The notes beneath the pieces were generated by a model that had not been told where the DNA came from, did no database searches, and saw only the letters and a program-made list of their open reading frames with translations. Below, in pieces: positions 1-5,485 of a DNA stretch of 64,000 nucleotides. Origin of the DNA: a virus. Every line of letters begins with the position of its first letter. Position 1 is the stretch's first letter. The position numbers and the translations under genes are program-made. The stretch spans positions 1 through 64,000 of the IMG/VR virus record IMGVR_UViG_3300045970_000591; one strand, given 5' to 3'.

Positions 1-181
1 TGTTAGGGCTTAAACTTAAATAGCGAGATTAATCTTTGTGCCTAAACCCTAGAGATAAAACCTGCAACCAGATTTGGTTTTGCGCGTGACATTTGTGCGT
101 GCATTATACACACAAGTTATGCGCGTGTATGTGTGTATACAGATATATGTATATACCTGTACAGCTTTGACACCTAGACAT

Positions 182-234
182 AGAGTTCGTGCTAGTTTAG
201 ATCTAATGCCTGCAGGCCTACAAGCACGAACTCT
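182..234. repeat. Perfect 12-bp inverted repeat AGAGTTCGTGCT / AGCACGAACTCT enclosing palindromes TTAGATCTAA and GCCTGCAGGC
   Basis: Seen directly: arms at 182-193 and 223-234. Confidence 0.85.
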
Positions 235-753
235 CTGAGACTTTGTCGATCTTTTGTCTGTCTTTTGCGTATTCTCGTAGACGACATCTGTTTATGTCTG
301 TTAGTTGTAGAACCTTAGCGAGAGTGTTCTGGACGTACGGCCGTAGGTAAGGCTGCAACTGCATTTATTGTTAGATTTTACAGGAAACCACAGACTTTGT
401 CAACAACTTTTGTCAAACAAATGTAAGATCGCGTTCTTAGCTTTGTGCCTAAGTTTAAGGTATCTCTACAGTAGCGAGATACTGTGCTTGATCAGACAAA
501 GATCGTATTAGTTCGTGCAGGTGGTTCTGAAGAACGATAGATCTACATTAGCAAGAACAGTCTAAAGCATAGGGAAAAAGTTAAACATTAATAGCTTATG
601 TATGTGTTTTGCTTAGTCAAAACGCATAGTAAGTGCTTACTTACATACGCCTTTGAGCGCGTTCGCGTTTGGTCGACATGGGCGTGCGCCTAAACGAGCG
701 AGACCATTTTACATAAGCTCTCGCTTGGTCATTTTAGGACAAAGACTAGGGCA

Positions 754-817
754 AGCGTGAACTTAAAGTGCAACAAAGTGTAACACTGCACTAAATACAC
801 AAAAAATAGTTTATAAT
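754..817 (+). promoter_or_regulatory. 64-bp promoter cassette, copy 1 (TGCAACA/TGTAACA boxes, TATAAT -10)
   Basis: Identical to 4223-4286 and near-identical to 3200-3263; ends in TATAAT upstream of ORF 849. Confidence 0.8.
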
Positions 818-848
818 GTTTACTTAGCAACAAACAAAGTAGCAAAAA

Positions 849-1130
849 ATGCAAAAAGCAAACACACTGTTTTACAAAGTGCAAATGCAAAAAAACAACA
901 GCGCGTTGTTTATTGTGTTTAGCTTTGCGGAGCCCGTGCAGCAGCGCACAGCGCACAGCGTTGTAACGCACGCGAAAACGCTTACAAGCGCAAAGTTAGC
1001 GCAGCTTGTTGCCGTGCAAGCAAAGTTTGACAACGCAGCTGACACGCTCGATGTTAGCAGCACTGCAATGTGCAAGTTGTTGCAAAAAAACGACACTTAC
1101 GCAGCAGCACAGCAAGTCGCGTACTACTAA
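849..1130 (+). CDS. Hypothetical early protein, strongly depleted in GA/GG/TC/CC (93 aa, no G or W)
   Basis: ORF directly downstream of the promoter cassette; only a handful of TC/CC/GA/GG dinucleotides. Confidence 0.65.
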   Translation: MQKANTLFYKVQMQKNNSALFIVFSFAEPVQQRTAHSVVTHAKTLTSAKLAQLVAVQAKFDNAADTLDVSSTAMCKLLQKNDTYAAAQQVAYY

Positions 1131-1168
1131 CGCGCAGCAGTTGCAGCAGCAAGCAAGATGCTGCACTG

Positions 1169-1217
1169 TGTAACAAATGTAACAGTGCTTGCAAAAGCAC
1201 TGTTTCTGCGTTATAAT
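1169..1217 (+). promoter_or_regulatory. Sigma70-like promoter TTGCAA-17-TATAAT with two upstream TGTAACA boxes
   Basis: Boxes 1169-1175 and 1178-1184, -35 at 1189-1194, -10 at 1212-1217; ATG follows 5 nt later (leaderless). Confidence 0.75.
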
Positions 1218-1222
1218 ACACT

Positions 1223-1420
1223 ATGGTTACAAAAACATTCTCCTCCTTTACTGCATACATGCAGGCACTCTCGAAGTTAAAGGCTGCTGGATACATCCAC
1301 GTAAACGAGAGCTGGGAGGACAACCGGAAAACTGGCGGAAGTATGTTTGTTGCAACAACTCACGCAGGTTGTCTATTTATTGATGTGTGTATGCCCGAAA
1401 GTGCGCTTTCTGCGTTATAA
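1223..1420 (+). CDS. Hypothetical early protein (65 aa)
   Basis: ORF starts right after the promoter. Confidence 0.6.
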   Translation: MVTKTFSSFTAYMQALSKLKAAGYIHVNESWEDNRKTGGSMFVATTHAGCLFIDVCMPESALSAL

Positions 1421-1426
1421 TACATT

Positions 1427-1603
1427 ATGAACAAAGCACAAAAGATTGAGCGGCTTAAAGACATTTACAGGAAACTGTATGCTAACGAGCCCGCGGACAC
1501 ATACGACCTCGATGCTGCGGAAGAGTATTGGGCGAGTTTGAGCGAGGCACTGCTTGACATTGAGTTGGGTTTTGCAACACTTTATGACGCACTGGAAGGA
1601 TAA
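1427..1603 (+). CDS. Small acidic hypothetical protein (58 aa, MNKAQKIERL...YDALEG); not in the ORF track
   Basis: Translated by hand; TATAAT lies 5 nt upstream of the ATG (leaderless). Confidence 0.65.
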   Translation: MNKAQKIERLKDIYRKLYANEPADTYDLDAAEEYWASLSEALLDIELGFATLYDALEG

Positions 1604-1607
1604 GCAA

Positions 1608-1763
1608 ATGAGTAAACAACAACGCAACGCTAAGGTAAAGGAAGCACTCGCCTTGCTGGATAAGGCTGAGACATTGTACTGGGAGTTGCACGGCGATGCA
1701 GACGACGATGTACACAGCGAGTTTGAAGTTGTGCGTGAAGCATTGGAGGCAGAAGCAAAATGA
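1608..1763 (+). CDS. Small acidic helical hypothetical protein (51 aa, MSKQQRNAKV...)
   Basis: Start at ATG 1608 after the previous stop is more plausible than the track start 1554; ATGA overlap with the next gene. Confidence 0.65.
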   Translation: MSKQQRNAKVKEALALLDKAETLYWELHGDADDDVHSEFEVVREALEAEAK

Positions 1764-1957
1764 AAGAAAAACTCAAAACCTTGGAGAACCTGACCAGACT
1801 CCTCTATCAGGAACTCAAGATTGCAACATACGACACCACGCTCTGTGACAATGCCCACGCGCTCCTCAAAGAGGCATCAGTGGATGCAATCAACCTCCAG
1901 CGCAAGATTGAATCGGCGCGTTCCTGGCAAACCATAAAAGATGTAACAAAGGATTGA
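1760..1957 (+). CDS. Hypothetical protein (65 aa)
   Basis: ATGA-coupled ORF with amphipathic helical pattern. Confidence 0.65.
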   Translation: MKEKLKTLENLTRLLYQELKIATYDTTLCDNAHALLKEASVDAINLQRKIESARSWQTIKDVTKD

Positions 1958-1982
1958 CAACCCTGTTCCTTTGTTGTATAAT
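1942..1982 (+). promoter_or_regulatory. Consensus sigma70 promoter TTGACA-17-TATAAT with upstream TGTAACA box
   Basis: Box 1942-1948, -35 at 1954-1959, -10 at 1977-1982. Confidence 0.85.
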
Positions 1983-2008
1983 AAAGACTTAGCAACAAAG
2001 GAAACAAA

Positions 2009-2218
2009 ATGGAATACTTCATCTTTATTGTGTGTTTGGCGTTAATCGCTGCACCTGTCCTGTGTGTCTGGTTGTTCTACCGTCCGCTTACCCAGAAGCC
2101 TTCCGCAACCATTCAGCGTGCGGCAAAGAACATTATCAACCTTGCCAGCCAACTGGGCATGCCGGCAGCAGTTGACGCGAAGTGGAACCTGGTAGCTAAG
2201 GAGTTAGACGCAACTTAG
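2009..2218 (+). CDS. Small membrane-anchored protein (69 aa)
   Basis: AAGGA SD-like site; N-terminal hydrophobic stretch YFIFIVCLALIAAPVLCVWLFY. Confidence 0.7.
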   Translation: MEYFIFIVCLALIAAPVLCVWLFYRPLTQKPSATIQRAAKNIINLASQLGMPAAVDAKWNLVAKELDAT

Positions 2219-2226
2219 TCCTGGCA

Positions 2227-2260
2227 CACGCAGAGGCATTTAACCTATATGCCCTGCGTG
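2227..2260 (+). terminator. GC-rich hairpin after ORF 2009 (CACGCAG-AGGCAT / ATGCC-CTGCGTG)
   Basis: Inverted repeat is visible but there is no U-tract, so terminator function is uncertain. Confidence 0.35.
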
Positions 2261-2491
2261 ACAATCCTAATTAGGAAAACCAACCTAACCTGCACGCCTA
2301 AACTGCACAGAAAATTCTCCCAGATGGTTTTGGTTTTTTAGGTAGGAAATGTGCCTAAGCAGCAAGATTGAAAAGTTGCCTATAGGCCTATAGACGAGCA
2401 GGCGCTAAGGTAAGCGGCCTAGGGCTTGTTCGCGCTAATAATACCTAACCTAACGCACGCAGCTGGCACGACACGCATAAGCACAGGAATG

Positions 2492-2540
2492 TGTAACAGT
2501 GTGTAACAGTGCAGCTAACACAAAATATTTGCTGTATAAT
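2492..2540 (+). promoter_or_regulatory. Promoter with two TGTAACA boxes and TATAAT, no consensus -35
   Basis: Boxes 2492-2498 and 2502-2508; -10 at 2535-2540. Confidence 0.65.
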
Positions 2541-2570
2541 AAACACTTAGCAACAAAAAGGGTTAGCGAA

Positions 2571-2852
2571 ATGTTTGATGCAGCACATAAAGCAAACAAC
2601 GGTGTAATGGTGCAATACGTTGATATGGGCACGGAGTACACACATAACGGGCATACGATGCTGTTTGTTGGCGAACAGCAGAGCGGTGAAGTTGTTGTGG
2701 ACGGCGTGTACTACGCGGAGTATATGTACAACGACGAAAGCGATACAAACAGCTTGTACAACGACGAGCGTGGCGACGAAGCGTTTGCGACGATTGGTAA
2801 CACAGATGAAGCGTATGAAGCGTATGCGTTACAAGTGTTACAAGCACTGTAG
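2571..2852 (+). CDS. Highly acidic early protein (93 aa; 17 D/E versus 2 K/R); sense strand has no TC or CC
   Basis: ATG 2571 lies downstream of the promoter (track start 2499 lies within the promoter); residues counted by hand. Confidence 0.7.
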   Translation: MFDAAHKANNGVMVQYVDMGTEYTHNGHTMLFVGEQQSGEVVVDGVYYAEYMYNDESDTNSLYNDERGDEAFATIGNTDEAYEAYALQVLQAL

Positions 2853-2860
2853 CGTTTAGG

Positions 2861-2920
2861 CAACAGTTACAAACTGTTACACAAGTTACGTCTTGTTACA
2901 AGTTTTACAACTTGTTACAA
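2861..2920. repeat. Cluster of about six GTTAC(A)-type motifs
   Basis: caacagttac aaactgttac acaagttacg tcttgttaca agttttacaa cttgttacaa. Confidence 0.75.
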
Positions 2921-3076
2921 TTCGTGCGCGTGCAGCAGCTTCTTTAAAGTTCTGCAGCGCGAACGTCTTGCAGCTACTTTTATGGTTAAGCACGTCTGTG
3001 TAGCGCGGGTCGTCGTGCTACTTGCTTGCTTGTTGTTATGTATTAAGCGCGACAAGCTGTGTGTTTTATTTGTTTG

Positions 3077-3091
3077 CATAGTTGTATTATA
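3077..3091 (-). promoter_or_regulatory. Minus-strand TATAAT-acaact-ATG element facing gene 2571
   Basis: Same TATAATACAACTATG string as the + strand start of gene 4293. Confidence 0.55.
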
Positions 3092-3199
3092 TACCCAACA
3101 TCCTCTAGTCGCGCTGTTTGGGTTAGGATTTTTTATGCCTGCAGCGCGAAGCAATAAAAACAGCTCGCGCAACTTTTAACACAAAAGCTATTTAAAAAC

Positions 3200-3263
3200 A
3201 GCGTGAACTTAAAGTGTAACAATATGTAATACAGCACAAAATACACAAAAAATAGTTTATAAT
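3200..3263 (+). promoter_or_regulatory. 64-bp promoter cassette, copy 2 (diverged)
   Basis: Same length and ends as copies 1 and 3, with a few substitutions. Confidence 0.75.
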
Positions 3264-3315
3264 ACAAGCTACAGGCAAAAGCAATAACGCACAAGCTGTT
3301 AAAATGTAAAGCAAT

Positions 3316-3927
3316 ATGCACACATTAACATTAGCACAAGCGCAAAACGCAATAGCGTTGCACGCAAACAACACTGTTGTAACTGCACAACAAATACAAA
3401 ATATGCTGCAAAACGTAAGCGTTACGTTTGCACAAATTACTTACGTTACGCAAGTAGCGTTAGCAGCGCAGCACAAAGCGCAAAACATACAAAAAGTAAC
3501 AACTGCAAACGTAATACTGTGCAGCAACATTAAAGCACACACAAGCGTTTACGCAAACAAAGTAAAGCGTAGCGCAGCAGCTATTAGCAGCAACAATGCA
3601 CAAGCTGTAGCAGCGTTTACAGCGCAGCAAAACTACTTTACGCACACAGCAACGCATTGCATTGTGCAGCATACACAGCACGCAAACAAAATGTATTTGT
3701 ATGCTATTTACAACAACGCACAAAGCGTGTATATGCACAATAACGCTGTTGTAAGCAAACAACACGTTGCAGCATACTGCACAAAAAGCGCAGCAGCAAC
3801 ATTGTTGCAACAAAGCAACGTTGTTGTAAATAAAACACACAACATAGCGCACACTGTGCAAGTGCGTACTATTGCGTTAAGCAACATAGTAAGCATTAAA
3901 GCGCGTAAGCAGCTACTTACAGTGTAG
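3316..3927 (+). CDS. 203-aa early protein with no D, E, G, P or W
   Basis: Longest ORF of the block; preceded by the promoter cassette and followed by a terminator; the gene has no GA, GG, TC or CC. Confidence 0.8.
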   Translation: MHTLTLAQAQNAIALHANNTVVTAQQIQNMLQNVSVTFAQITYVTQVALAAQHKAQNIQKVTTANVILCSNIKAHTSVYANKVKRSAAAISSNNAQAVAAFTAQQNYFTHTATHCIVQHTQHANKMYLYAIYNNAQSVYMHNNAVVSKQHVAAYCTKSAAATLLQQSNVVVNKTHNIAHTVQVRTIALSNIVSIKARKQLLTV

Positions 3928-3964
3928 CAAATAAACAACTGTTGCAGCAATGCAACAGTGTGCA

Positions 3965-4000
3965 AGCGCAGCTAGTTCACGCTAGTTGCGCTATTTTTTT
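3965..4000 (+). terminator. Rho-independent terminator
   Basis: Stem AGCGCAGCTAG / CTAGTTGCGCT followed by a T7 tract. Confidence 0.85.
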
Positions 4001-4222
4001 AACTAAAACAGCGCGACCAAATATTGCACACAAATATGAGACCTTGTTTTATATTTTTAAATTTTAAAATTAAATAGCGCGGTCAAATTTACTTTTTGTC
4101 GTGCGTTTTTGGGGGCAAAAACCATCCTAAAAATGCACGGTGGTTCGCGCTACAACTTTTGAGGACACATGTTCTTTGCAGCGCGATACCCGTGCGTGCT
4201 GTGTTAGCTTGCGTGCAAAAGT

Positions 4223-4286
4223 AGCGTGAACTTAAAGTGCAACAAAGTGTAACACTGCACTAAATACACAAAAAATAGTTTATAAT
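4223..4286 (+). promoter_or_regulatory. 64-bp promoter cassette, copy 3
   Basis: Identical to 754-817; ATG 6 nt after TATAAT (leaderless). Confidence 0.8.
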
Positions 4287-4292
4287 ACAACT

Positions 4293-4619
4293 ATGCAAAA
4301 CACTACACAGCAAATAACTTATACGCAGCACTGCAAAGTAAAGCACAAAAAGCACTTTAGCATTGCACAACGCAACGCACGCAATGCTATGTATGCTGCA
4401 CTGTATAGCGCAGCACAGCAAGCAGTAGCGCAGCAAGTAGCGCAAGCACTGCAAGCACTGTATTTTAAGCAGCGCGTTAATATTAACTACAACGCAAAAA
4501 GCATTAGCGTGCAACTGCAAAACGCAACAGCAACGCAAGCAGTGCAGTATATTGCACGCACGCACAACGCAAGCATTAAGCAAACACAAAACAACATATT
4601 GTTACACTTGTTTGCATAA
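4293..4619 (+). CDS. 108-aa basic early protein with no D, E, G, P or W
   Basis: Leaderless ORF after the promoter cassette; the gene has no GA, GG, TC or CC. Confidence 0.75.
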   Translation: MQNTTQQITYTQHCKVKHKKHFSIAQRNARNAMYAALYSAAQQAVAQQVAQALQALYFKQRVNINYNAKSISVQLQNATATQAVQYIARTHNASIKQTQNNILLHLFA

Positions 4620-4630
4620 AGCAACAACTA

Positions 4631-4700
4631 CAAGTTGTAACAACTGTTGCAACTTGTTACAACTGTAACAACTTGTAACTGTAACATTTTGTAACAGTTC
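4631..4700. repeat. Cluster of about seven TGTAAC/GTTAC motifs
   Basis: caagttgtaa caactgttgc aacttgttac aactgtaaca acttgtaact gtaacatttt gtaacag. Confidence 0.75.
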
Positions 4701-4733
4701 GTGCGCGTTGTTGTATGCGTGCTACACTTTTGT

Positions 4734-4830
4734 GCGCGAACCCCTTGCAACATACAGCGTTGCGTGCTATAATAGTAGCGCGAACCCCTTGCAGCTTGTT
4801 GCTTGTTTGTTATAATAGTAGCGCGAACAT
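4734..4830 (+). promoter_or_regulatory. Tandem ~43-bp units GCGCGAACCCC-TTGCA(A/G)-16/17-TATAAT (two promoters plus a partial third)
   Basis: TTGCAA 4745-4750 / TATAAT 4768-4773; TTGCAG 4789-4794 / TATAAT 4811-4816. Confidence 0.65.
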
Positions 4831-4867
4831 CTTGTTGCTTACAGCAGCAGCGTATTGTATTTGTGTG

Positions 4868-4882
4868 CATAGTTGTATTATA
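4868..4882 (-). promoter_or_regulatory. Minus-strand TATAAT-acaact-ATG element facing gene 4293
   Basis: Same string as the element at 3077-3091. Confidence 0.55.
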
Positions 4883-4995
4883 CACTATATTTGTCTCTGC
4901 CGCGCAGCTTAGGGCTGAGAAATCATGTTCTTTGTAGCAAGGGGTTCGCGTAGGATGGTTATAAAATCCTAACCTAAACAGCGCGAACGCTCATT

Positions 4996-5044
4996 TGTAA
5001 CAGTTGTAACAGTGCTTGCACTTTAACAAAACTTGTGCTATAAT
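4996..5044 (+). promoter_or_regulatory. Promoter TTGCAC-17-TATAAT with two TGTAACA boxes and no ORF immediately downstream
   Basis: Boxes 4996-5002 and 5005-5011, -35 at 5016-5021, -10 at 5039-5044. Confidence 0.7.
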
Positions 5045-5108
5045 ACAAGTCAGCACTATAAATAGCGAGGCGAACAGTTTTACGAGAGCGCGGGTAAGCA
5101 CGCCCTAG

Positions 5109-5199
5109 ATTTTTCTCCTATCTCTATAGGTCCCACCCTAAGCTGAAATTTTTCTCCTATCTCTATAGGTCCCACCCTATCTCTATAGGTCCCACCCTA
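5109..5199. repeat. Pyrimidine-rich direct repeats (ATTTTTCTCCTATCTCTATAGGTCCCACCCTA x2 plus a partial third)
   Basis: Seen directly; each unit contains the CCTAT-CTCT-ATAGG hairpin. Confidence 0.9.
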
Positions 5200-5213
5200 A
5201 CTCTATGCGTCCG

Positions 5214-5242
5214 TTGACTTCTAACGTAAGACCATATATACT
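5214..5242 (+). promoter_or_regulatory. Sigma70-like promoter TTGACT-17-TATACT driving array block 1
   Basis: ATG 5249 lies 6 nt after the -10 (leaderless). Confidence 0.8.
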
Positions 5243-5248
5243 AACAGT

Positions 5249-5485
5249 ATGTCTACCGATTCTTATTCATATCCACATTCCAGTCATTTCTATCAGACGC
5301 TAGTCAGGCGTTATAAAAATGTCACGAATGATATGATGACTGAATCCCGCAATATGAAGATATGGTTGATTGCTAATGTGGTAGATCATGAATATGGTTG
5401 TTATTCAAACGGATTACTTATGGAAGTAGTTTGTTTCAAGAACCCAAAAGACTTGGTAGCCTTCAAGTTAAAGTTTGGAGTATAG
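5249..5485 (+). CDS. FKLKFG-family paralogue 1
   Basis: Ends DLVAFKLKFGV. Confidence 0.8.
   Translation: MSTDSYSYPHSSHFYQTLVRRYKNVTNDMMTESRNMKIWLIANVVDHEYGCYSNGLLMEVVCFKNPKDLVAFKLKFGV

What the first reader, a model, noticed from the sequence alone, without database searches (positions are those of the whole stretch)
3316..4619. Two proteins written in a 15-amino-acid alphabet (no D, E, G, P, W)
Seen: ORFs 3316-3927 (203 aa) and 4293-4619 (108 aa) lack every residue whose codon must contain GA, GG or CC, and use only AGY for Ser. The 203-aa protein has 22 Q and 12 H. Inference: E->Q and D->H need G->C changes, which cytosine deamination would not produce (it gives E->K, D->N). That points to selection remodelling the proteins to satisfy a DNA-level rule. 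Both genes have a promoter and the first has a clean terminator, so they look expressed. Folded proteins with no acidic residues, glycine or proline would be remarkable.
Basis: partly seen in the sequence, partly recalled or inferred. Interest (0 to 1): 0.8.

Follow-up and report, generated by a model that had tools for sequence, protein, structure and literature searches.

The report
Phage proteins rewritten in 15 letters
Two real, conserved early genes of an uncultured giant phage have been rewritten by natural selection so that their DNA contains no GA, TC, GG or CC, which leaves predicted folded proteins with no Asp, Glu, Gly, Pro or Trp and implies that something in the infected cell reads two-letter DNA steps.

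Summary
ORFs 3316-3927 and 4293-4619 lack D, E, G, P and W. They lie in 703- and 471-bp runs with no GA, TC, GG or CC, although these steps make up 17.5% of the genome.

Both ORFs are real genes.
- orfA has 260+ metagenomic homologues, dN/dS of 0.1-0.3 and a confident AlphaFold model (pLDDT 92).
- Some orfA orthologues use a normal alphabet and have Shine-Dalgarno sites.
- orfB has conserved homologues and a confident core model.

The rule acts on nucleotides and is kept by selection.
- No banned step occurs at a codon junction in orfA, where about 25 (GA/GG) and 18 (TC/CC) are expected.
- 147 differences from an orthologue never break the rule (P~1e-47).
- Replacements are conservative (D to N/S, E to Q/T/A, G to N/A/Q, P to A/K). 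D to H is not seen.

The rule is strand-symmetric. Neighbouring TC/CC-free genes keep GA/GG almost only in Asp/Glu/Gly codons. One relative bans only CC/GG. This argues against Rho avoidance as the sole cause. The modified phages PA5oct and CAjan show no such tracts. The agent that reads these steps remains unidentified.

This scan noted similar bans before on other giant-phage DNA. I found no published description.

The parts
3194..3267 (+). Promoter module of orfA. It is a repeated 74-nt element ending in TATAAT (3258-3263) and obeys the ban except for GA at 3206.
   Evidence: Repeat family D2 has copies at 748, 3194 and 4217. TATAAT list. No -35 consensus, so promoter function is inferred.
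3316..3927 (+). orfA: a 203-aa protein with a 15-letter alphabet (no D, E, G, P, W), net charge about +14, and no Shine-Dalgarno site.
   Evidence: Composition. 260 homologues. 178 clusters at 50% identity. dN/dS 0.1-0.3. AlphaFold pLDDT 91.8, pTM 0.85. Charge. Leader sequences.
3939..4000 (+). Two hairpins and a T-run: the intrinsic terminator of the orfA unit. The ban ends here; the first TC, at 3977, lies in the hairpin loop.
   Evidence: free energy -33.3 kcal/mol, z -5.1.
3207..3977 (.). Banned tract A: 771 bp with a single exception (GG at 3274-3275), where about 135 occurrences are expected.
4217..4290 (+). Promoter module of orfB (TATAAT 4281-4286). The ATG follows 6 nt after the -10 box, so the mRNA is probably leaderless.
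   Evidence: The same -10-to-ATG spacing occurs at the normal-alphabet ORFs starting at 1223 and 1427.
4293..4619 (+). orfB: a 108-aa protein with the same 15-letter alphabet. The predicted core (residues 24-108) is helix-helix-strand-strand-helix-strand-strand.
   Evidence: Composition. Nine close homologues, with no D, E, G, P or W seen on inspection of the printed sequences. More distant homologues at L008:7381-7728 and L016:9128-9502. AlphaFold pLDDT 81.6 overall, with block means of 90 or more over residues 31-108.
4229..4699 (.). Banned tract B: 471 bp with none of the four steps.
4630..4682 (.). Array of GTAACA/TGTTAC repeats after orfB. It is an inverted copy of the array at 2863-2915. 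Together with a leftward TATAAT at 4882 it forms a boundary module.
   Evidence: (repeats I1, D3, D10).
748..1130 (+). Third unit of the same kind: the same promoter module plus a 93-aa ORF (849-1130). The ban is nearly kept (4 D, 1 E, 1 P, no G or W).
   Evidence: GA/GG at codon junctions: 2 observed against 18 expected.

Best explanation
orfA and orfB are genuine early-gene products of an uncultured giant (jumbo-type) phage, and they belong to two protein families. Their 15-letter alphabet has no protein-level purpose. It is the by-product of a strand-symmetric ban on the DNA steps GA/TC and GG/CC. That ban covers whole small early gene cassettes: promoter module, leader, ORF and terminator.

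Shown:
- The ban is held by purifying selection at the nucleotide level.
- The proteins have been re-coded from normal-alphabet ancestors by conservative replacements (D to N/S, E to Q/T/A, G to N/A/Q, P to A/K), with loss of the Shine-Dalgarno site.
- The degree of purging has changed repeatedly within the family.
- The two complementary pairs, TC/GA and CC/GG, can be banned separately in different relatives.
- Neighbouring cassettes that look TC/CC-free only on the sense strand obey the same four-step rule. They keep GA/GG almost only where Asp, Glu or Gly must be encoded.

Inferred:
- The selective agent reads two-base steps on duplex DNA, or on both strands alike.
- It harms expression or integrity of first-expressed genes site by site, rather than cutting the genome. 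The spacers between cassettes keep the steps, which a genome-cutting agent would not allow.
- My leading guess (about 0.35) is a base-modifying or base-damaging host defence enzyme with nearest-neighbour specificity. Examples would be a deaminase-type reader of 5'-TC and 5'-CC, or a guanine-directed enzyme reading GA and GG.
- The proteins themselves are probably early takeover or counter-defence factors. orfA is basic and may contain an Sm/WYL-like barrel that binds nucleic acid. That reading is weak.
For: Real genes:
- orfA has 260 homologues of conserved length of about 203 aa and 178 clusters at 50% identity.
- dN/dS is 0.09-0.29.
- AlphaFold gives pLDDT 91.8 for orfA, and 81.6 for orfB with block means of 90 or more over residues 31-108.
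- Normal-alphabet orthologues have GGAGA or GGGAG Shine-Dalgarno sites.
- The BFVD library holds uncharacterised phage proteins with the same fold, TM 0.5-0.68.

Nucleotide-level selection:
- In orfA, GA/GG at codon junctions is 0 against 24.6+-2.5 expected. TC/CC is 0 against 17.7 expected. In orfB the expectations are 14.6 and 12.6 and both counts are 0.
- 147 differences from L003 keep the rule in both lineages, P~1e-47.
- The flanks obey the rule.

Re-coding map. Net charge rises from +2/+4 to +14/+16.

Labile state: the zero state needs at least 6 changes on the tree. Of 73 orthologues with DNA, 34 are fully purged and 12 are normal.

Symmetry:
- In 17 TC/CC-free cassettes of relatives, GA/GG at junctions is 101 against 236.5 expected. 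GA/GG sits almost only in D/E/G codons, and Pro is absent in 16 of the 17 (one Pro in the other).
- ORF2571 of the window has 9 against 19.1 expected.
- The L027 orthologue has CC 0 and GG 1, with TC 29 and GA 41. Junction GG is 0 against 17.2 expected, while junction GA is 17 against 16.6.
- TC and GA are the best-correlated pair across orthologues (r=0.86). No orthologue is in a state with TC/CC purged and GA/GG normal.

The ban is aligned with cassettes. Spacers after the terminators carry the steps.
Against: - No agent has been identified. No bacterial defence that edits or marks DNA at exactly these steps is known to me.
- Expression and folding are predicted only.
- The quick tree may be distorted by the shared odd composition.
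- In L015, TC/GA are absent from the spacers too, so cassette alignment is not universal.
- Two partly purged units of the window (ORFs at 1427 and 1608) show no junction depletion of GA/GG.
- Rho's exact 5'-YC specificity (PMC6144790, PMC13323073) may still contribute to the TC/CC half.
- The function of either protein is unknown. The best PDB matches are weak: Z 6.3 to YaeO/Rof and Z 7.5 to a designed protein.
Confidence: 0.75

Rival explanations
1. The rule acts on RNA. The transcripts are purged of UC/CC so that termination factor Rho, whose primary binding clefts hold 5'-YC, cannot load on poorly translated early mRNAs. GA/GG are purged to escape a second RNA-level agent, such as a CmdT-like ADP-ribosyltransferase that marks GA in single-stranded mRNA.
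For: - Rho recognises up to six UC or CC dinucleotides (PMC6144790; PMC13323073).
- CmdT modifies GA in ssRNA (10.1101/2024.02.24.581662).
- The cassettes run from promoter to terminator.
- The purged genes have no Shine-Dalgarno site or are leaderless, so their transcripts would be exposed.
- CC in the L015 spacers pairs with GG in hairpins.
Against: - The two banned sets are exact reverse complements.
- GA/GG are purged at codon junctions even in cassettes that keep D/E/G, which Rho avoidance does not predict. G-rich RNA in fact resists Rho.
- The L027 cassette bans CC/GG and keeps 29 TC.
- No orthologue has TC/CC purged with GA/GG normal.
- Promoter DNA upstream of the likely start site obeys the ban.
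- Antisense transcription cannot rescue the model. The same convergent leftward promoter follows both orfB and the GA/GG-rich ORF2571.
Confidence: 0.12
2. The cassettes are kept free of the phage's own motif-specific DNA hypermodification, for example a 7-deazaguanine placed at GA and GG. This would let host RNA polymerase read them from incoming virion DNA.
For: - PA5oct is inferred to carry modified G at GA and/or GG (10.1101/2025.03.31.646159).
- The motif matches, and the rule is strand-symmetric as a duplex modification would be.
- GTP cyclohydrolase I and QueD-like genes lie side by side in relative G001.
Against: - The first 50 kb of PA5oct and the whole CAjan genome, which encodes a transglycosylase and a preQ0 pathway, show no such tracts.
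- No TGT/DpdA, C5-methylase or N6/N4-methylase was found in G000-G004, including the complete 364-kb G001. Three of these records, including the window's own G000, are only 20-45% complete by CheckV's estimate.
- G001, which has the FolE and QueD genes, shows no ban.
Confidence: 0.15
3. The cassettes lack CRISPR PAMs. Losing CC/GG removes type I-F and II-A PAMs, and losing TC/GA removes TTC-type PAMs. Spacers could then be neither acquired from nor used against the first-expressed DNA.
For: - The rule is strand-symmetric.
- The components are separable: CC/GG alone in L027 and TC/GA mainly in L007, L048 and L050.
- Many contigs end within 1-3 kb of the gene, so it may lie near a genome end.
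Against: - All TC is banned, not only TTC.
- Spacers between cassettes and the rest of the genome keep the motifs, so the phage stays targetable.
Confidence: 0.07
4. The ORFs are chance open frames in low-complexity non-coding DNA, or the tract is a passive hypermutation footprint (cytosine deamination) without selection.
For: - Long open frames are common in this composition, and the minus strand has 133- and 109-aa frames.
- D to N is the commonest Asp replacement.
Against: - The family is conserved and includes normal-alphabet members. dN/dS is well below 1, and the fold models are confident.
- orfA has 0 in-frame stops against 17 and 7 in the other frames.
- E to K, G to S and P to L are rare.
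- There are no stop codons where Trp was lost.
- A is 39% and T is 19%, which is not the symmetric AT enrichment expected of deamination.
Confidence: 0.03

Closest known systems
Site-free first-entering or first-expressed phage DNA (T5/BF23 first-step-transfer region; T7 leading region)
   Same: Both are small early genes with strong host-type promoters, at or near a contig end. In both, the sequence itself is purged of the targets of a host activity before any protective protein exists. The purging is strand-symmetric.
   Different: Here the purged words are two bases long and are removed completely, at the cost of five amino acids. The purge follows single cassettes and leaves the spacers between them unpurged, so simple protection from cleavage does not fit.
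APOBEC3 footprints (TC depletion) in animal DNA viruses, and the 5'-TC preference of the DddA-type double-strand DNA deaminases (from my own knowledge)
   Same: The specificity is a nearest neighbour plus C (TC, CC), read on either strand. Viral genes are re-coded to lose the motif.
   Different: The footprints are partial and genome-wide. Here the loss is total and local, the replacement spectrum is not the deamination spectrum, and no such bacterial defence is known.
Rho-avoiding sense-strand composition (purine bias under runaway transcription, PMC13323073)
   Same: UC and CC are exactly the dinucleotides Rho reads. The purged mRNAs lack Shine-Dalgarno sites.
   Different: The ban is strand-symmetric. 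GA/GG are purged as well. A relative bans CC/GG alone.
Motif-specific guanine hypermodification of phage DNA (PA5oct GA and/or GG; CAjan, with motifs GA and GGC as I recall them)
   Same: The same two-base contexts of G occur on duplex DNA. The window shares PA5oct's layout of many small early genes followed by reverse-strand structural genes.
   Different: Neither PA5oct (first 50 kb) nor CAjan has motif-free cassettes. No transglycosylase was found here.
Engineered reduced-alphabet proteins (laboratory simplification studies; from my own knowledge)
   Same: Both are folded alpha/beta proteins built from far fewer than 20 residue types.
   Different: These are natural, widespread and under purifying selection. 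The missing set (D, E, G, P, W) is dictated by DNA steps, not by design.

Membership tests
Motif avoidance in early or leading phage DNA | Target words are absent far beyond chance in the first-expressed region | tested here: met
   Free runs of 703 and 471 bp against a 17.5% background, found only in the first 5 kb of the 123-kb record.
Motif avoidance in early or leading phage DNA | The avoidance is kept by selection in relatives | tested here: met
   34 of 73 orthologues are fully purged. 147 differences keep the rule.
Motif avoidance in early or leading phage DNA | The region enters the cell first (physical genome end) | not testable with these tools
   The window starts at base 1 of a fragment, and many contigs end near the gene. 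Repeats could equally break assemblies at this point.
Rho-avoiding transcripts | UC and CC are depleted on the sense strand | tested here: met
   No TC or CC in 3166-3977 or 4191-4699.
Rho-avoiding transcripts | The constraint is confined to the sense strand, with no pressure on GA/GG | tested here: not met
   Junction GA/GG is 0 against 24.6 expected in orfA, and 101 against 236.5 in 17 neighbouring-type cassettes.
Rho-avoiding transcripts | UC and CC are lost together | tested here: not met
   The L027 orthologue has CC 0 and TC 29. L011 has CC 27 and TC 6 per 600 nt.
Modification-free windows of a 7-deazaguanine phage | A DpdA/TGT transglycosylase is encoded | tested here: inconclusive
   No PF01702 match in G000-G004. 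G000 is only 36% complete, and divergent DpdA types may escape this model.
Modification-free windows of a 7-deazaguanine phage | Phages known or inferred to carry the modification show such windows | tested here: not met
   PA5oct 1-50 kb: longest all-four-free run 105 bp. CAjan: no TC/CC-free or GA/GG-free run above 112 bp.
Deaminase-type (5'-TC / 5'-CC) footprint | YC is lost on both strands, and TC and CC are separable | tested here: met
Deaminase-type (5'-TC / 5'-CC) footprint | Replacements follow C-to-T and G-to-A changes | tested here: not met
   E to K 4, G to S 5, P to L 1, against E to Q 61, G to N 51, P to A 37. This fits avoidance by selection, not passive editing.
Deaminase-type (5'-TC / 5'-CC) footprint | A matching enzyme exists in the host | not testable with these tools
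   The host is unknown. No hit in bacterial genome contigs.
WYL / Sm-like beta-barrel proteins (orfA) | Fold match to solved WYL, Hfq or Rof barrels | tested here: inconclusive
   VIA Z 4.5-6.3 over about 70 residues. An Atlas row of viral WYL_2 proteins has TM 0.65 by target. This is below the level that separates kin from a common arrangement.
WYL / Sm-like beta-barrel proteins (orfA) | Sequence match to Pfam WYL or Rof models | tested here: not met
   No Pfam family at E<=1, including for the normal-alphabet orthologues.

The most novel reading that the evidence does not exclude
A diversifying class of factors in infected cells reads two-base DNA steps. Its members differ in specificity (TC/GA, CC/GG or both). 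Giant phages have answered by rewriting their first-expressed cassettes into step-free DNA, which created natural, folded, conserved proteins that use only 15-17 amino acids. This would show that phages can escape an immunity that targets a 2-nt motif, which was called implausible for CmdT (10.1101/2024.02.24.581662). It would also hand protein science a natural series running from normal to reduced alphabet within one fold.
Probability: 0.4. Interest if true: 0.9.

Novelty: new variant of a known kind. Interest (0 to 1): 0.8.

Why it matters
First, it gives a natural evolutionary series within one protein family. The series runs from a normal alphabet, through CC/GG-free versions (no Pro, almost no Gly), to versions with no Asp, Glu, Gly, Pro or Trp. 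This makes a direct test of how much of the amino-acid alphabet an alpha/beta fold really needs.

Second, a total ban on two-base steps, held by selection and variable between relatives, points to an unidentified reader of dinucleotides in infected cells. The cassettes are ready-made probes for finding it.

Third, it corrects a tempting reading. The apparent sense-strand TC/CC ban in neighbouring genes is largely an effect of coding cost on a strand-symmetric rule.

Tried and rejected
Searches that found nothing:
- Megablast, blastn and tblastn of the region, orfA and the normal-alphabet orthologue against GenBank phages gave no match.
- Bacterial and archaeal genome contigs gave no relative.
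- An exact search for the promoter motif in viral contigs gave none.
- Pfam and PHROGs gave no family for either protein or for normal-alphabet orthologues.
- Foldseek against PDB gave nothing at E<=0.001. The VIA-wide search gave only middling Z. The ESM Atlas returned only hypothetical proteins plus one WYL_2 lead.
- Rfam and tRNA scans of 1-5400 were empty.

Ideas tested and dropped:
- ORF length as proof of coding. It is weak in this composition.
- Symmetric ban explained by antisense transcription. The same convergent leftward promoter follows a cassette that keeps GA/GG. A leftward terminator also guards the 3' end of orfA.
- 3'-end bias of residual TC/CC, as Rho would allow. None was seen.
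- Own-modification genes. No TGT or DNA methylases were found. There is only a FolE-QueD pair and a dCMP deaminase, both in relatives without a full ban.

As a result, DNA for most database homologues, including P0251, could not be fetched.
Full report
**What is there.** The window is the first 64 kb of a 123,382-bp IMG/VR virus record that CheckV rates 36% complete. That points to a genome of roughly 340 kb. Relatives sit on contigs of 326-365 kb.

ORF 3316-3927 (orfA, 203 aa) and ORF 4293-4619 (orfB, 108 aa) contain no Asp, Glu, Gly, Pro or Trp. Every Ser codon is AGC.

The cause lies in the DNA. GA, TC, GG and CC are absent from 3275-3977 (703 bp), 4229-4699 (471 bp) and 760-929 (170 bp). 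These steps make up 17.5% of all dinucleotides in the genome, and no free run elsewhere exceeds 46 bp.

The free tracts are wider than the ORFs. Each starts in a repeated 74-nt promoter module ending in TATAAT (copies at 748, 3194 and 4217). The orfA tract ends in a strong two-hairpin terminator with a T-run. The orfB ATG lies 6 nt after its -10 box. Two ordinary ORFs at 1223 and 1427 have the same spacing, so a leaderless mRNA is likely.

**Are the ORFs genes?** ORF length alone does not settle it. Random Markov-1 sequences of this make-up have a mean longest open run of 104 codons. The opposite strand also shows 133- and 109-aa frames. The comparative evidence does settle it.
- orfA has 260 homologues in the word-indexed protein collection, nearly all about 203 aa. 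A full HMM scan of 1.84 billion representatives finds 178 clusters at 50% identity.
- Pairwise dN/dS is 0.09-0.29.
- orfA has no in-frame stop, against 17 and 7 in the other two forward frames.
- AlphaFold2 with a 63-sequence alignment gives pLDDT 91.8 and pTM 0.85 for an alpha/beta fold.
- orfB has nine close homologues, in whose printed sequences I saw none of the five residues. It also has more distant ones next to orfA orthologues in L008 and L016. Its model has pLDDT 81.6 overall, with block means of 90 or more over residues 31-108.
- Neither protein matches any Pfam or PHROG family, nor any solved structure convincingly.
- The orfA fold recurs in uncharacterised phage proteins of BFVD (TM 0.5-0.68).
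- Weak hits point to an Sm/WYL-like barrel: Z 4.5-6.3 to YaeO/Rof, PafBC, BrxR and Hfq, and an Atlas row of viral WYL_2 proteins. I treat this as a lead only.

The family contains normal-alphabet members.
- Across 134 full-length cluster representatives, the median D+E+G+P+W content is 15.5%. Only 15 representatives lie below 5%.
- Orthologues in L016 (D5 E14 G6 P2), L017 and L006 have ordinary DNA and canonical Shine-Dalgarno sites (GGAGA, GGGAG). The purged versions have A-rich leaders without one.
- Column by column, Asp in relatives corresponds here to N (118) or S (81). Glu corresponds to Q (61), T (52) or A (27). Gly corresponds to N (51), A (34) or Q (31). Pro corresponds to A (37) or K (36).
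- These are the physico-chemically mild choices. The one-step deamination products are rare: E to K 4, G to S 5, P to L 1.
- Net charge rises from +2/+4 to +14/+16. It is only partly offset by fewer K and R.

**The rule is on nucleotides and is selected.**
- Given orfA's own codons, random codon orders would create 24.6+-2.5 GA/GG and 17.7+-2.8 TC/CC at codon junctions. The real gene has none. orfB likewise has none, against 14.6 and 12.6 expected.
- orfA differs from its L003 orthologue at 147 of 609 nucleotides without either copy breaking the rule. Yet 52% of possible single substitutions would break it (P about 1e-47).
- On a quick maximum-likelihood tree, the fully purged state needs at least six changes. 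Sister sequences differ sharply, for example L013 with 0 and L011 with 12 banned-type residues. The odd composition may distort that tree.
- Of 73 orthologues for which I obtained DNA, 34 are purged of all four steps and 12 are normal.

**One symmetric rule, not a sense-strand rule.** The window and its relatives also hold cassettes that are TC/CC-free on the sense strand and rich in GA/GG. Examples are 2450-2891 here and a minus-strand case in L003 where the pattern flips. I tested that reading directly.
- In 17 such cassettes of relatives, GA/GG at codon junctions is 101 against 236.5 expected.
- In those cassettes GA/GG sits almost only in the first two positions of Asp, Glu and Gly codons, and Pro is absent in 16 of the 17, with a single Pro in the other.
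- ORF2571 of this window shows 9 against 19.1.

These cassettes therefore obey the same four-step rule. They keep GA/GG only where an acidic protein needs them. The asymmetry follows gene direction because the genetic code makes sense-strand TC/CC cheap to lose and GA/GG costly. orfA and orfB are the cases where the protein could give up everything.

The two complementary pairs are also separable.
- The L027 orthologue and 1.6 kb around it have CC 0 and GG about 1, with TC and GA normal. Junction GG is 0 against 17.2, while junction GA is 17 against 16.6.
- L007, L048 and L050 are low in TC/GA with CC/GG normal.
- TC correlates best with GA (r=0.86).
- No orthologue is TC/CC-free with GA/GG normal.

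**What reads the steps?**
- *Rho* is attractive for TC/CC, because its primary site holds 5'-YC. It predicts no pressure on GA/GG and cannot explain a CC/GG-only ban that leaves 29 TC. Antisense transcription does not rescue it.
- *CmdT* shows that a defence can act on GA in mRNA. The exact reverse-complement symmetry speaks for DNA rather than RNA.
- *The phage's own motif-specific guanine modification* fits the motif; PA5oct is inferred to carry modified G at GA and/or GG. However, PA5oct's first 50 kb and the whole of CAjan have no such tracts. I also found no transglycosylase or DNA methylase in five related records, one of them complete. A FolE-QueD pair occurs in a relative without the ban.
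- *Cleavage-type threats* (restriction, CRISPR PAMs) fit poorly, because the spacers between cassettes and the rest of the genome keep the steps.

My best inference is a reader of nearest-neighbour steps on duplex DNA, or on both strands. Its hits would spoil expression or coding of the genes that must work first. A deaminase-like or guanine-directed base modifier is the leading guess. This part is inference. The agent is unidentified.

**Standing.** The phenomenon was noted several times by this scan on other giant-phage DNA, including CC/GG-only and other two-base bans. Those are unchecked AI notes.

Noticed in passing
window 748-1130: A third cassette has the same promoter module and a 93-aa ORF (849-1130). 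It is nearly purged (4 D, 1 E, 1 P). GA/GG at codon junctions is 2 against 18 expected.
   Followed up: partly
window 2863-3150 and 4620-4990: Two similar boundary modules follow ORF2571 and orfB. Each holds a GTAACA/TGTTAC repeat array (the two arrays are inverted relative to each other), AGCGCGAAC...CTTGCA boxes, and a leftward TATAAT followed 6 nt later by ATG (3091 and 4882, minus strand). Their function is unknown. They may be roadblock or regulator sites, or antisense promoters.
   Followed up: partly
window 812-5044, both strands: There are 13 perfect TATAAT boxes in 5.4 kb. Most lie behind a shared AACA..TGTAACA(G/C)TGC upstream motif. Several are followed by an ATG after 5-6 nt (1223, 1427, 4293), which suggests routine use of leaderless mRNAs.
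   Followed up: partly
window 5109-5199: Three copies of a 32-nt repeat very rich in TC/CC (ATTTTTCTCCTATCTCTATAGGTCCCACCCTA) mark the end of the early island, just before the array of small paralogous genes.
   Followed up: no
L003:6636-6941 (same as L002:4636-4941): A 101-aa ORF in the same 15-letter alphabet gives weak but convergent winged-helix/MarR hits (Pfam E 0.003-0.07; PHROG transcription regulator E 2e-4). It looks like a re-coded DNA-binding regulator.
   Followed up: partly
L015:3192-11600: An 8.4-kb run of at least 14 single-gene cassettes, each with its own promoter, leader hairpin and bidirectional-looking terminator. TC is essentially absent throughout. CC and GG occur only in spacer hairpins of the form GCCCCA...TGGGGC.
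   Followed up: partly
L027:1-1620: The early region of IMGVR_UViG_3300027969_003548 bans only CC/GG (0 to about 2 in 1.6 kb) and keeps TC/GA normal. The orfA orthologue there has no Pro and one Gly, but 24 Asp+Glu.
   Followed up: yes
L005, L010, L027, L039, L050, L057, L068, L073, L080: Many independent contigs end within about 0.2-3.5 kb of the orfA orthologue. Either the gene lies near a physical genome end, or the repeated promoter and spacer modules break assemblies there.
   Followed up: no
L022 (G001:111,649-114,379): Thymidylate synthase, GTP cyclohydrolase I and a QueD/PTPS-like gene lie side by side in the complete 364-kb relative. No QueE, QueC or transglycosylase lies next to them.
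   Followed up: partly
L008:2270-2551: A 93-aa normal-alphabet ORF shares a short stretch with the conserved helix of orfB (HMM E 7e-4). It may be a normal-alphabet paralogue of the orfB family.
   Followed up: no
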